The notes below the pieces were generated by a model that was not told the origin of the DNA, made no database searches, and saw nothing but the letters and a program-made list of their open reading frames with translations. A DNA stretch of 64,000 bases, from the IMG/VR virus record IMGVR_UViG_3300027759_000085, positions 1,452 to 65,451 of that record. The stretch is one strand, 5' to 3'. Origin of the DNA: a virus (lineage: Duplodnaviria; Caudoviricetes). A program made the position numbers and the translations under genes. Positions 12,790 to 64,000 of this stretch are shown one piece after another (the first letter of the stretch is position 1; every line of letters starts with the position of its first letter).

Positions 12790-12975
12790 TTATGCCCAAC
12801 AGTAAACTATATAAGAGTTAATAGAACTTCTTCTTTTTTTATTGAGCATACGTTTTACATTCCTAGTTATATTTCTATTTTTTTTTTGTCTTTTTACACC
12901 CTTACATTGTTTACATCTACACACTATTACTTTGCTAGGTTCAGAGTCTTCTTCTATTTGTTTATAATACTTCAT
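12790..12975 (-). CDS. small basic Cys protein
   Basis: CRCKQC; lies downstream of the structured RNA. Confidence 0.55.
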   Translation of the reverse strand: MKYYKQIEEDSEPSKVIVCRCKQCKGVKRQKKNRNITRNVKRMLNKKRRSSINSYIVYCWA

Positions 12976-12979
12976 CTTA

Positions 12980-13396
12980 CTTAGATTGTATACCTACTCT
13001 AATCCCAGCAGTTCTATTAGACTCCCAAGTTCCTACATTTAAGTAGTTGATATTAATTAGTGCGTACCCCAGAACTGAATTAATCAGACAAGCCCATCTA
13101 TCAAACTTGTTTTCGTACCACCCCATTATTGTCTGCCTGCTGGTCAAGAGATTGATGTAGAATCCAATTGCTCTCACTTTGACTAATGGTTTATTAATAC
13201 CTTTATACTCATGTTTTTGATTGCTCTCACAAGCCTATGCTCTTCCCAGTAATAGAGTTCTGAACTGGGTAAGACCTAAAAAACCCTCTCCTGACGGTTG
13301 AGATTAAATAGGATGGTTGCAAGTTCTTATTTAAGGATTATAGATGTCAGTGAGAGGGTAATATCTTTATGACTATAATCGATATAAAAACTTGCA
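12980..13396 (-). ncRNA. putative large structured ncRNA or leader, copy 1
   Basis: Follows a TACATTTG promoter (13400-13407); interleaved stems; core homologous, with covariation, to 63916-63991. Confidence 0.6.
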
Positions 13397-13519
13397 CAAC
13401 AAATGTACGGATAATATTTAACAATTTCAATACCCAATAACTATTTTTAAATATATTTGTTATTGTCGTTCTATATACCTATATTTGAATTGTATTTTAA
13501 AAATAACATATATAAAAAA

Positions 13520-13901: not shown

Positions 13902-13946
13902 AAACAAAAAGGTGGGGAGTATACGGGCTTCTCGCCTTTTTTGTTT
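13902..13946 (+). terminator. bidirectional intrinsic terminator
   Basis: AAACAAAAAGGTGGGGAG-loop-CTTCTCGCCTTTTTTGTTT. Confidence 0.7.
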
Positions 13947-62080: not shown

Positions 62081-62178
62081 AGTCAGGTGGCGGAATCAGG
62101 TAGACGCTAAGTTAACAGACAGAAGGAGATGGAGAGGAATGGCTCGCCTTCATACAGGTTCAAATCCTGTCCTGACTA
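62081..62178 (+). tRNA. tRNA-like RNA (Leu-type D/T arms, no canonical anticodon arm)
   Basis: AGTCAGG/CCTGACT acceptor, GCGGAATCAGGTAGACGC D arm, ACAGG-TTCAAAT-CCTGT T arm; TATATTTG promoter at 62064. Confidence 0.65.
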
Positions 62179-63731: not shown

Positions 63732-63761
63732 AAAACTTAGTATTTAATTTGTATCTTTGCA

Positions 63762-64000
63762 CTATTGAGCTGAGGAGCTTGATAGATTTAAATTAGAGAT
63801 TACTTAATCATATAAGATAACCTCATCGTATCCAATTAGTATTCACAATAAGATGGTGATTACTTTAGCTCCTCAGCTGGATTAGATGGGGTTATTTTTG
63901 TTAGCTCCCACCTGATATTCACCTGTTCTACATCTCCTGTACAGGTAATAGCATAGGCTCGGAAGAGCAATCAAAAGCTAGGGAGTATAAATAAAATGTT
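63762..64000 (+). ncRNA. putative structured ncRNA or leader, copy 2 (truncated by window end)
   Basis: TATCTTTG promoter at 63752; interleaved stems; core homologous to 13202-13275. Confidence 0.6.

What the first reader, a model, noticed from the sequence alone, without database searches (positions are those of the whole stretch)
63752..63900. Interleaved A-B-A'-B' leader (pseudoknot or attenuator) ahead of both RNA copies
Seen, copy 2: AGCTGAGGAGCT (63768-79) is perfectly complementary to AGCTCCTCAGCT (63867-78), while 63815-34 pairs with 63878-97, which ends in a U-tract. Seen, copy 1 (minus): TGCAAGTTTTTAT (13396-84) pairs with ATAAGAACTTGCA (13330-18), and ACCCTCTCACTGAC (13359-46) pairs with GTCAGGAGAGGGT (13295-83) followed by TTTTT. 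The sequences are unrelated but the topology is identical. Inference: a terminator/antiterminator switch, in which the 5' end invades the terminator loop, that gates read-through into the conserved downstream RNA.
Basis: partly seen in the sequence, partly recalled or inferred. Interest (0 to 1): 0.75.

Follow-up and report, generated by a model that had tools for sequence, protein, structure and literature searches.

The report
Pseudoknotted terminator leader of phage RNA cassette
Both copies of a mobile phage RNA cassette begin with a short folded leader in which the very start of the transcript base-pairs inside the loop of a transcription-stop hairpin, a pairing that related phages keep while changing almost every letter of it, so it is a real RNA device that probably doses transcription into the cassette.

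Summary
It holds in all 10 complete leaders I could collect: the 2 in the window, 3 on IMG/VR contigs and 5 on metagenome contigs, in three sequence types.

A:A' is a 10-15 bp helix in 10 of 10. Of 127 pairs, 117 are Watson-Crick, 9 are G.U and 1 is C.A. It comes in at least 7 different letter versions. B:B' followed by a U-tract is also present in 10 of 10. Each leader sits a few bases after a conserved TAnnTTTG box.

The two helices share at most one base. Loop lengths allow both at once, and the combined fold is 9-15 kcal/mol below the best nested fold before any pseudoknot penalty. So this is best read as a pseudoknot-forming intrinsic-terminator leader, not a classical either/or attenuator.

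- a 5' hairpin (P0) whose apex is A;
- hairpin H1;
- a B':C hairpin in the copy-2 type;
- a second helix, A2, in the copy-1 type.

A and A' are the fastest-changing part of the leader (50-57% variable columns, against 9-10% in B and B'). Contigs with different A letters coexist in one lake run.

No RNA data exist, so termination, and the direction of A:A''s effect on it, are inferred. Nothing in Rfam matches, and four literature searches found no description. This scan has noted the same architecture ("kissing-loop terminator leaders") in other Bacteroidota phages, on other DNA.

The parts
63752..63759 (+). Copy 2: TATCTTTG, a Bacteroidota-type -7 promoter box (TAnnTTTG)
   Evidence: Present at the same place in 10 of 10 leaders. 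It lies in the least variable leader segment (6% variable columns). The motif alone is not enriched in the window (98 found against 87.7 expected). The promoter role is inferred.
63762..63785 (+). Copy 2: P0, a 10-bp 5'-terminal hairpin whose apex is segment A
   Evidence: Seen in the MFE folds. RNAalifold keeps it, with changes on both sides in 6 of 9 pairs. On alignment A6, 85.7% of cells are paired. It is weak in L005.
63768..63779 (+). Copy 2: segment A
   Evidence: 12 of 12 complementary to A'. It is replaced by other letters in L004, L007, L009, L005 and L013, with A' changed to match.
63814..63834 (+). Copy 2: segment B, the 5' arm of the terminator-like stem, including the A-rich tract AAGATAA
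63838..63864 (+). Copy 2: hairpin H1 inside the B:B' loop
   Evidence: Found in the MFE of 7 of 7 type-2/3 leaders. 92% of cells are paired, and 2 pairs changed on both sides.
63867..63878 (+). Copy 2: segment A', which abuts B'
   Evidence: The record-start copy differs from it at 5 positions, all within this arm.
63878..63899 (+). Copy 2: segment B' and the U-tract TTATTTTT (63892-63899)
   Evidence: A T-run of 4-9 follows B' in all seven type-2/3 leaders.
63902..63916 (+). Copy 2: segment C, which can pair with B' so that the U-tract becomes a hairpin loop
   Evidence: RNAalifold on four full-length units predicts 14 pairs here. Changes are on one side only. C is absent from the copy-1 type.
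63921..63946 (+). First hairpin of the conserved downstream RNA (ACCTGT/ACAGGT); the GCATAGG block starts at 63950
   Evidence: The hairpin covaries with copy 1 (CCCAGT/ACTGGG) and L013 (ATCGGT/ACCGAT).
13400..13407 (-). Copy 1: TACATTTG, the -7 box
13384..13396 (-). Copy 1: segment A, which starts 4 nt after the box
13373..13380 (-). Copy 1: A2 (GATTATAG), a second helix just inside A:A'
   Evidence: L008 has TTAATTATAT/ATATAATTAA and L011 has TTGATTATA/TGTAATCAA at the same place.
13346..13359 (-). Copy 1: segment B, lying in the 29-nt apical loop of the A/A2 hairpin
13336..13343 (-). Copy 1: A2' (CTATAATC)
13318..13330 (-). Copy 1: segment A'
13278..13295 (-). Copy 1: segment B' (13295-13283) and T6 (13283-13278)

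Best explanation
Each cassette is transcribed from its own host-type promoter. The first 120-140 nt fold into a leader built on two interleaved helices.

**The parts**
- The transcript's 5'-terminal segment A pairs with A'. A' lies inside the oversized loop of a hairpin, B:B', that ends in a U-tract.
- B:B' plus the U-tract is an intrinsic terminator. It stops part of the transcripts before the 330-nt RNA and the small Cys-rich or HNH-like ORF.
- A' is made before B', and at that length A:A' is the most stable fold. The terminator's 5' arm B is therefore already enclosed in a domain closed by A:A' when B' emerges.
- The terminated product is a compact pseudoknot with both ends paired.

**Likely role**
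- A:A' sets how fast and how completely B:B' can form. It thereby fixes the share of read-through, and it makes that share independent of whatever lies upstream of this mobile cassette.
- In the copy-2 type the 5' hairpin P0 first holds A, and A' must displace it. This adds a kinetic step that could make the ratio tunable.

**Shown and inferred**
- Shown: the helices, their covariation, the U-tract and the order of synthesis.
- Inferred: the promoter, the termination itself, and the direction and size of the A:A' effect.
For: **A:A' is a conserved RNA helix**
- A:A' is 10-15 bp in 10 of 10 leaders (127 pairs: 117 Watson-Crick, 9 G.U, 1 C.A). There are at least 7 letter versions, including matched 1-3 nt insertions on both arms.
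- Cognate duplexes score -17 to -28 kcal/mol. Pairs from different specificity groups score -3 to -17.

**B:B' looks like a terminator**
- B:B' plus a T-run is present in 10 of 10.
- Its loop-proximal 5 bp differ in each type and still pair: ATCCA/TGGAT, ATTCG/CGAAT, ATCAG/CTGAT, CTGAC/GTCAG.
- On an alignment not fitted to this helix, 86% of cells are paired, against 36-48% when the partner is slid by 1-3 columns.
- An A-tract, GC-rich stem and U-tract layout like that of B:B' is seen at strong hairpin terminators elsewhere in this phage (13906-13941, 14215-14181, 10498-10519).
- Only 1 of 10 leaders has a second TAnnTTTG between the U-tract and the RNA.

**Order of folding and energies**
- In transcripts cut at the end of A', A:A' beats the P0 state by 6-15 kcal/mol in 10 of 10.
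- The sum of both helices is 9-15 kcal/mol below the best nested fold.
- Copy 1 has classical H-type loop lengths: 13, 2 and 22 nt.

**Natural variants change both arms together**
- One contig of run X6 carries both arms changed together.
- Run X2 holds a mixture at A: 12.5 of 23.6 depth.

**Published support for the principle**
- Structures that share no bases with a terminator can still suppress it (bioRxiv 10.64898/2026.06.17.733018; abstract and section 7 read).
- The free-standing T4 endonuclease genes mobE and segF carry 5' terminators, and about 30% of transcripts stop at the mobE terminator (PMC2988022; passages read).
Against: - No RNA run is listed for this phage, so no 5' end, 3' end or read-through ratio is known.
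- The terminator loop is 43-50 nt, far beyond the 3-8 nt of ordinary intrinsic terminators.
- TAnnTTTG is not enriched in the window (98 against 87.7 expected; 11 of 100 shuffles reach it).
- Consensus terminator-like sites are not enriched either (10 against 7.6, and 8 against 8.7).
- B:B' shows little two-sided covariation within the copy-2 type: 1 of 21 pairs.
- In the copy-1 type the nested MFE of the antisense strand is lower than that of the sense strand in 3 of 3.
- In the copy-2 type B' can also pair with downstream segment C, 14 bp. The U-tract could therefore be a hairpin loop in the long RNA.
- The pseudoknot penalty was not computed. I took 7-10 kcal/mol from recall.
- The direction of the A:A' effect is undetermined.
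Confidence: 0.55

Rival explanations
1. The leader is a small-RNA gene in its own right. The promoter-to-terminator product of about 120-135 nt is the functional molecule. Its pseudoknot gives it stability or a protein-binding shape, for example to hold the downstream nuclease in check. The terminator mainly sets the ratio of short RNA to long RNA and protein, as in type III toxin-antitoxin loci and the RCd22/AbiF pair.
For: - The layout is promoter, compact fold with both ends paired, then U-tract.
- The ORF behind the copy-2 type matches PHROG HNH endonuclease families (phrog_740 E 1.2e-5).
- RCd22 is a leader ncRNA that lowers abiF transcription and neutralises the protein (PMC12373285; abstract read).
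Against: - The leader is always followed by the 330-nt RNA in the 7 units whose contig reaches that far.
- It persists in front of copies without an HNH-like ORF: copy 1 and L011 have a 61-aa ORF with no family match, and L008 has no ORF.
- A and A' evolve too fast for a protein-contact surface.
- No tandem repeats are present.
Confidence: 0.18
2. There is no termination. The leader is simply the 5' structural domain of one long RNA of about 480 nt, and the U-rich run is a linker, or the loop of the B':C hairpin.
For: - RNAalifold on full-length units prefers P0 plus B':C, with the U-tract in the loop.
- The terminator loop is atypically large.
- Consensus terminators are not enriched in the phage.
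Against: - A T-run directly after B' is kept in all three sequence types (10 of 10).
- The B':C pairing is missing in the copy-1 type (about 4 bp) and weak in L004, L009 and L010 (sequences).
- The A-tract upstream of B is complementary to the U-tract, which is typical of terminators.
Confidence: 0.12
3. A:A' is an RNA address that also works in trans. The abundant terminated leader of one genome pairs with nascent leaders of co-infecting relatives that carry the same address, and changes their termination. This would be a self/non-self or immunity code, like seqA/seqB/seqC of P4 CI RNA or the a/b boxes of P1/P7 c4.
For: - A and A' are the most variable leader segments among five close relatives (50% and 57% of columns, against 9-10% for B and B').
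- Contigs with different A letters coexist in one run (X2), and different runs carry different pairs.
- The two copies in the window are orthogonal: cross duplexes score -6.3 and -10.6, against -24.2 and -21.8 for the cognates.
- P4 CI RNA causes premature termination by pairing with two sites on the same leader (PMC4825925; passage read).
Against: - In the finished fold both A and A' are paired in cis, which leaves little free address.
- Fast matched change of inverted repeats can also come from template switching during replication (recalled, not tested).
- There is no evidence of processing to a small RNA.
- No repressor-like logic is evident for a lytic-looking phage.
Confidence: 0.1
4. 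The inverted repeats act in DNA, as a recombinase or invertase site, a cruciform, or the endonuclease's own target, and the RNA pairing is incidental.
For: - A and A' are near-palindromic and resemble restriction-type sites.
- The record's two ends meet inside this element.
Against: - The non-Watson-Crick positions in A:A' are 9 G.U against 1 C.A on the transcribed strand. A DNA-level or antisense reading would expect no such bias. Only about 5 of the 9 G.U are independent events.
- No strand-changing joint was seen in four runs, which were contigs only and so of low power.
- The inner segment has the same orientation in 10 of 10 leaders.
- The record ends are explained by an assembly break at a polymorphic site, because L005 is contiguous across it.
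Confidence: 0.03

Closest known systems
Guanidine-IV (mepA motif) riboswitch
   Same: A first hairpin contacts the loop of a terminator hairpin through a kissing interaction, and that contact decides read-through (PMC11611296; introduction passage read).
   Different: - No conserved ligand-pocket nucleotides. The single-stranded parts differ between the three types, apart from the A-tract.
- The contact is a 10-15 bp duplex rather than a short loop-loop kiss.
- No Rfam match.
'Tug-of-war' antitermination (Bushhouse, Fu and Lucks, bioRxiv 10.64898/2026.06.17.733018)
   Same: A stable RNA structure that shares no bases with the terminator still changes termination (abstract and section 7 read).
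   Different: There the structure sits immediately upstream of the whole terminator. Here its 3' strand lies inside the terminator loop and its 5' strand is the transcript's own start. No ligand is known.
Satellite phage P4 CI RNA (seqA/seqB/seqC) and P1/P7 c4 RNA
   Same: Complementary boxes on one phage leader control premature termination (P4: PMC4825925 passage). That the boxes co-vary between heteroimmune relatives is recalled from memory, not checked.
   Different: Those RNAs are processed and act in trans as immunity factors of temperate elements. Here the pairing is read as being in cis, and no processing or lysogeny module was seen. The window gave no match to any Rfam family except tRNA.
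5' intrinsic terminators of the free-standing T4 homing-endonuclease genes mobE and segF
   Same: A partial terminator ahead of, or at the start of, a mobile nuclease gene limits its transcript level (PMC2988022 passages).
   Different: The T4 terminators are plain hairpins with 4-nt loops and no 5'-end pairing. Here a 330-nt structured RNA lies between the terminator and the ORF, and copy 1 has no recognisable nuclease.
Leader-RNA/terminator/toxic-protein units (type III toxin-antitoxin; RCd22-AbiF)
   Same: The order is promoter, folded (pseudoknotted) RNA, terminator, then the gene of a potentially harmful protein (PMC12373285 abstract; the ToxIN layout is recalled).
   Different: - No tandem repeats.
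- No evidence that the leader binds the protein.
- The leader persists where the nuclease-like ORF is absent.
'Kissing-loop terminator leaders' of Bacteroidota phages noted earlier in this scan (unpublished AI notes)
   Same: A host-type promoter, a 5' hairpin, a terminator hairpin, and a fast-changing complementary 'address' between them, often ahead of HNH cassettes.
   Different: - This leader is longer (120-140 nt against about 90-105 nt).
- The pairing is 10-15 bp and consumes the 5' hairpin's apex.
- The copy-1 type has no 5' hairpin.
- A large ncRNA follows.
- No sequence look-alike was found in the index, so membership is untested.

Membership tests
Intrinsic (Rho-independent) terminator | G+C-rich stem followed at once by a U-rich tract | tested here: met
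   10 of 10 leaders have a T-run of 4-9 directly after the G-rich end of B'.
Intrinsic (Rho-independent) terminator | Short hairpin loop (about 3-8 nt) | tested here: not met
   The loop is 43 nt in copy 2, where it holds H1 and A', and 50 nt in copy 1. The consensus scan did not call either site.
Intrinsic (Rho-independent) terminator | RNA 3' ends at the U-tract | not testable with these tools
   No RNA run is listed.
Classical attenuator (terminator and antiterminator as mutually exclusive helices) | The two alternative helices share nucleotides | tested here: not met
   A:A' and B:B' share one base in copy 2 (63878) and none in copy 1. P0 against A:A', and B:B' against B':C, do share bases.
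Classical attenuator (terminator and antiterminator as mutually exclusive helices) | Conserved leader peptide | tested here: not met
   The short ATG frame over A' in the window and L007 is shifted or lost in L004, L005 and L013 (my reading of the sequences).
H-type RNA pseudoknot | Strand order S1-S2-S1'-S2' with loops long enough to span the helices | tested here: met
   In copy 1, L1 is 13 nt, L2 is 2 nt and L3 is 22 nt for stems of 21 and 13 bp. In copy 2, 34 nt and about 32 nt span a 12+21 bp stack, with L3 of 0. The geometry argument is inference; no 3D model was made.
H-type RNA pseudoknot | Both helices present at the same time | not testable with these tools
   Only energy sums are available. 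No pseudoknot-aware folding or probing was done.
Riboswitch (any Rfam class, including guanidine-IV) | Match to a family model, or conserved unpaired ligand-pocket nucleotides | tested here: not met
   No Rfam match for the leaders at E up to 10 other than chance-level snoRNA and miRNA rows. The L1 loops of the three types share only the A-rich tract next to B.
HDV-like ribozyme (same strand order P1-P2-P3-P1'-P2') | Short P1 and P3, P1.1, and a J4/2 strand with the catalytic C between P1' and P2' | tested here: not met
   A' abuts B' with no joining strand in the copy-2 type. The helices are 10-21 bp. No Rfam ribozyme family matched. The fold's defining features are recalled from memory.
P4 CI / P1-P7 c4 type immunity RNA | Family model match; processed small RNA acting in trans | tested here: not met
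   No Rfam match. Processing and trans action are not testable here.
Kissing-loop terminator leaders of Bacteroidota phages (this scan's own class) | Promoter box, 5' hairpin, terminator hairpin, and a covarying contact between them | tested here: inconclusive
   All four features are present in 6-7 of the 7 type-2/3 leaders. The 5' hairpin is missing in 3 of 3 type-1 leaders. No shared sequence was found with earlier findings.

The most novel reading that the evidence does not exclude
The fast-changing A:A' duplex is an address code. It ties each cassette's terminator to its own transcript start, and so lets co-infecting or co-resident cassettes be controlled independently. Matching addresses in trans would then let one phage's abundant leader RNA shut down or open a competitor's cassette. 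That would be an RNA-only self/non-self system, kept diverse by frequency-dependent selection in lake phage populations.
Probability: 0.12. Interest if true: 0.85.

Novelty: new variant of a known kind. Interest (0 to 1): 0.6.

Why it matters
Promoter-proximal terminators that dose phage and mobile-element genes are known. A terminator whose loop is clamped by the transcript's own 5' end, through a long duplex with freely changing letters, appeared in none of the four literature searches I ran, and Rfam gave no match.

If the A:A' helix sets the read-through ratio, it would be a compact, ligand-free way to programme termination. It would also be independent of context, and the address could be swapped at will. 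That would make it useful as a design principle, and it could explain how mobile cassettes keep their expression constant wherever they land.

The matched polymorphism seen between and within single lake samples offers a natural mutate-and-rescue series. This series makes the question directly testable.

It also connects this cassette to a larger, still unpublished class of kissing-loop leaders that this scan keeps finding in Bacteroidota phages.

Tried and rejected
**Known RNA families.** The Rfam gathering scan of the whole window gave only a tRNA-like hit at 62081-62178. E-value scans of copy 1, of the record start and of a complete copy-2-type unit gave only chance-level rows. ARAGORN found nothing.

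**More relatives**
- An exact-pattern scan of viral contigs found 2 loci. A second RNA pattern and a leader pattern found only contigs already in hand.
- The metagenome contig scan found 5 loci.
- The species-genome scan found 0.
- GenBank phages by blastn gave no match.
- The search for homologous proteins returned 59 relatives of the 142-aa protein, but their DNA could not be fetched.
- An alignment-based locus search gave 13 viral loci, one of them the L005 contig already in hand, and 1 Chryseobacterium locus. Only 1 of the 12 new viral loci (L013) has the cassette. The other 11 and the Chryseobacterium locus carry the protein without RNA or leader.

**Expression.** No RNA holder is listed, so nothing can be said about transcripts.

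**Covariance model.** Model R1, built on the MAFFT alignment, only reproduced that alignment. It did not bring the A and A' arms of L005, L013 or the longer variants into register. A:A' was therefore counted in my own ungapped register, and the counting tool was used only for P0, B:B' and H1. R1 found no further leader in the window or in 21 loci, and it did not find the copy-1 type.

**Readings rejected**
- Leader peptide: the frames are not conserved.
- Second promoter after the U-tract: seen in 1 of 10.
- Riboswitch: no conserved pocket.
- HDV-like ribozyme: the strand order matches, but none of the other features do.
- DNA inversion: no inverted copy among 10 leaders and no strand-changing joint, which used contigs only.
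- P0 as terminator of the upstream gene: it lies downstream of the conserved -7 box.

**Strand test.** A comparison of nested MFE on the sense and antisense strands supported the sense strand only for the 7 type-2/3 leaders, not for the 3 type-1 leaders.

**Papers.** PMC10690425 lists thousands of candidate phage RNAs. I saw it only in a search listing, and its supplements are closed. Whether this motif is among them is unknown.
Full report
**Setting.** The window is bases 1452-65451 of a 65,451-base virus record.
- The record's last 141 bases match its first 141 at 96%. All five mismatches fall in the first 15 bases of the record.
- A related contig, L005, runs without a break from the DnaA_C-like gene through leader, RNA and a 142-aa ORF into the genes found at the record start.
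- So the record most likely closes on itself inside copy 2. The break sits at a polymorphic spot, which turns out to be segment A'.
- Neighbouring genes are a YqaJ-like exonuclease, a Rad52-like annealase and a DnaA_C-like protein before copy 2, and a DUF3127 protein divergent from copy 1.
- The 142-aa ORF after copy 2 matches no Pfam family but matches PHROG HNH endonuclease families (phrog_740, E 1.2e-5).
- The 61-aa ORF after copy 1 matches nothing and is not detectably related to it.

**The observation.**
- Copy 2: A 63768-79 and A' 63867-78 are 12 of 12 complementary. B 63814-34 and B' 63878-98 are 21 nt at 81%, with G.U pairs making up part of the rest, and the helix ends in TTATTTTT.
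- Copy 1: A 13396-84 and A' 13330-18 are 13 nt with one U.G. B 13359-46 and B' 13295-83 form 13 bp with a one-base bulge, followed by T6.
- Both leaders fold better than every one of 200 shuffles. The A-region/A'-region duplex beats all 1000 shuffles for both window copies.
- I looked for the same architecture after each of the 98 TAnnTTTG sites in the window. That returned the two leaders and one weak hit inside a coding region.

**Relatives.**
- Pattern scans with the conserved block of the downstream RNA, and a locus search with an alignment of the 142-aa protein, gave eight more complete leaders.
- Together with the two window copies they fall into three types:
  - copy-2 type: L004, L005, L007, L009, L010;
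  - copy-1 type: L008, L011;
  - a third, more distant type: L013.
- There are two partial sets as well: the record start, and contigs of public runs.
- The cassette sits behind at least four different upstream sequences. L008 has lost the ORF. Eleven of the 12 new viral loci, and a Chryseobacterium locus, carry the protein with neither RNA nor leader.
- The leader therefore travels with the RNA as a mobile unit. An earlier agent reached the same view for the RNA itself (e1-6204581).

**A:A' is a real helix.**
- I counted it in an ungapped register from the 5' end of A. All 10 leaders have 10-15 consecutive pairs. The total is 127 pairs: 117 Watson-Crick, 9 G.U and 1 C.A.
- The letters are almost wholly different between versions:

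| Leader(s) | A | A' |
|---|---|---|
| window, L010 | AGCTGAGGAGCT | AGCTCCTCAGCT |
| L007 | AGCTTCCGAGGTTC | GAGCCTCGGAAGCT |
| L009 (CCTAGG on both arms) | AGCTTCCTAGGTTC | GAGCCTAGGAAGCT |
| L005 | GTTTCATGCAAGATT | AATCTTGCATGGAAC |
| L013 | CCTTGGTCGGATG | TGTCCGACCAAGG |
| copy 1 | TGCAAGTTTTTAT | ATAAGAACTTGCA |
| L008, L011 | TGCAAAGTTT | AAGACTTTGCA |

- Cognate duplexes score -17 to -28 kcal/mol, and pairs from different groups score -3 to -17.
- The exceptions to Watson-Crick pairing are G.U on the transcribed strand in 9 of 10 cases. This points to RNA on this strand rather than DNA or antisense RNA. Only about five of those G.U pairs are independent events.

**B:B' and the U-tract.**
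- Both are present in 10 of 10 leaders.
- Inside the copy-2 type B and B' hardly change (9% and 10% variable columns), so two-sided covariation there is sparse: 1 of 21 pairs. Even so, 86% of cells pair, against 36-48% when the partner is slid.
- Across types the loop-proximal five pairs are four different complementary sets: ATCCA/TGGAT, ATTCG/CGAAT, ATCAG/CTGAT, CTGAC/GTCAG.
- The stem ends in G-rich letters, a T-run of 4-9 follows, and an A-rich tract precedes B. This is the same layout as the phage's few strong plain terminators at 13906, 14215 and 10498.
- Consensus terminator-like sites are not enriched in the phage as a whole. The loop of 43-50 nt is far outside the usual range.

- *Promoter box.* A TAnnTTTG box lies 4 nt (copy-1 type) or 8-10 nt (other types) before A in 10 of 10 leaders. 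The motif by itself is common in this AT-rich window. Its value here comes from its fixed position and conservation (6% variable columns).
- *P0 and H1.* In the copy-2 and L013 types A is the apex of a 5'-terminal hairpin, P0, and a hairpin H1 sits between B and A'. Both are kept with changed letters. P0 is weak in L005 and absent in the copy-1 type.
- *A2.* In the copy-1 type a second helix A2:A2' extends A:A'. B then lies in the 29-nt apical loop of a 21-bp hairpin, and B' pairs with that loop. This is a textbook H-type pseudoknot, with loops of 13, 2 and 22 nt.
- *B':C.* In the copy-2 type B' can also pair with a C-rich segment just past the U-tract: 14 bp, changes on one side only. This can only form after read-through.

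**Switch or pseudoknot.**
- A:A' and B:B' share one base at most, so they do not exclude each other by sequence.
- In transcripts ending at A', the A:A'-closed fold is 6-15 kcal/mol better than the fold with A' left free, in 10 of 10.
- For the whole leader, the best nested fold is P0 plus B:B' in the seven type-2/3 leaders and A:A' in the three type-1 leaders.
- Adding the A:A' duplex to the B:B'-plus-H1 fold gives sums 9-15 kcal/mol lower than the best nested fold. This is about the size of published pseudoknot penalties, which I recall as 7-10 kcal/mol and did not compute.
- The double-helix state is therefore at least competitive everywhere. In the copy-1 type nothing competes with it.
- I conclude that the conserved core is a pseudoknotted terminator. 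The only true either/or choices are P0 against A:A', and B:B' against B':C, both in the copy-2 type.

**How it probably works.**
- A, B and A' are made first, and A:A' closes a domain that contains B.
- B' then emerges next to A' and pairs with B, while the polymerase sits on the U-tract. Part of the transcripts end there as a compact RNA with both ends paired. The rest run on into the 330-nt RNA and the ORF.
- A:A' may slow B:B'. The kissing loop of guanidine-IV does this (PMC11611296), and so do the non-overlapping structures of the tug-of-war design. Or A:A' may help B:B' by presenting B in a loop. This cannot be decided here.
- A plausible benefit for a mobile cassette is insulation. Closing the domain with the transcript's own start keeps B from pairing with whatever lies upstream, so the dose is the same at every insertion site.
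- Dosing of free-standing nuclease genes by 5' terminators is known in T4 (PMC2988022).

**The fast-changing address.**
- Among five close relatives, 50% of columns in A and 57% in A' vary, against 24% in the unpaired L1 segment and 9-10% in B and B'.
- Contigs of run X6 carry the L007 pair with both arms changed in one contig.
- Run X2 holds two versions of A side by side (12.5 of 23.6 depth), and its contigs break up inside the leader.
- Run X9 has a contig whose loose end reads the same A' version as the record start. As far as the listed differences show, its A arm keeps at least nine pairs with that A' (24 rows of that table were not shown).
- Matched insertions (TCC with GGA) suggest single templated events between the inverted repeats, or recombination, rather than two independent hits. 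That is inference.
- The diversity could be neutral, or it could be selected to keep cassettes from cross-talking. The two copies in this genome are orthogonal. It could also serve a P4-like trans function. I give this last reading about one chance in eight.

**Comparison with what is known.**
- Nothing in Rfam matches. Four literature searches found no description of a terminator whose loop pairs with the transcript's start in phages.
- The listing of PMC10690425 shows that large catalogues of phage RNA candidates exist. I could not inspect its supplements.
- This scan's own notes describe 'kissing-loop terminator leaders' in at least 54 other Bacteroidota-phage genomes, often before HNH cassettes and with a fast-changing address. 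These are unchecked AI notes.
- The copy-2 type fits that description. The copy-1 type fits only in part, because it has no 5' hairpin. No sequence look-alike was found.
- So the architecture has been seen before in this scan, on other DNA. This case adds four things:
  - a much longer contact;
  - three structural variants of one homologous leader;
  - a large ncRNA as cargo;
  - matched variants within natural populations.

**Verdict.** But the element is better described as a pseudoknot-forming terminator leader than as a classical switch. The mechanism and its direction remain inferred.

Noticed in passing
window 63860-64000 and record start (L002 1-141): The record's two ends overlap by 141 bases at 96%. 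All 5 mismatches lie in the A' arm, and a relative (L005) is contiguous across the junction. The genome is probably circular or terminally redundant, and the assembly broke at a polymorphic site. IMG/VR calls it linear and 59% complete.
   Followed up: partly
window 62081-62178 (+): A tRNA-like element scores 35.9 bits against Rfam tRNA (gathering score 29). It has a 40-nt insertion between the anticodon region and the T arm. ARAGORN does not call it.
   Followed up: no
window 63878-63916 (+); L013 about 1158-1200: B' can also pair with a C-rich segment just downstream of the U-tract: 14 bp in the copy-2 type and GGTGGGG/CCCCACC in L013. In read-through RNA the U-tract would then become a hairpin loop and B would be released.
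   Followed up: partly
L002 392-820 (+); window 12790-12975 (-): The ORFs behind the two RNA copies are unrelated by BLASTP. One is a 142-aa HNH-like protein (PHROG hits only, no Pfam hit). The other is a 61-aa basic CxCxxC peptide. In L008 the ORF is deleted while the leader and RNA are kept.
   Followed up: partly
L014-L024, L025: Relatives of the 142-aa protein (32-53% identity) in 11 other viral contigs and in a Chryseobacterium genome sit directly behind other genes, with neither the RNA nor the leader. The RNA cassette goes with only one branch of this protein family.
   Followed up: partly
window 13906-13941 (+) and 14215-14181 (-): Two very strong 15-bp hairpins with A-tract and T-tract flank the small gene after the DUF3127 gene. 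They look like bidirectional intrinsic terminators.
   Followed up: no
window 63893-63900 (+): The U-tract of copy 2 itself reads TATTTTTG, a match to the -7 box pattern. None of the other nine leaders has this, so it is probably chance.
   Followed up: yes
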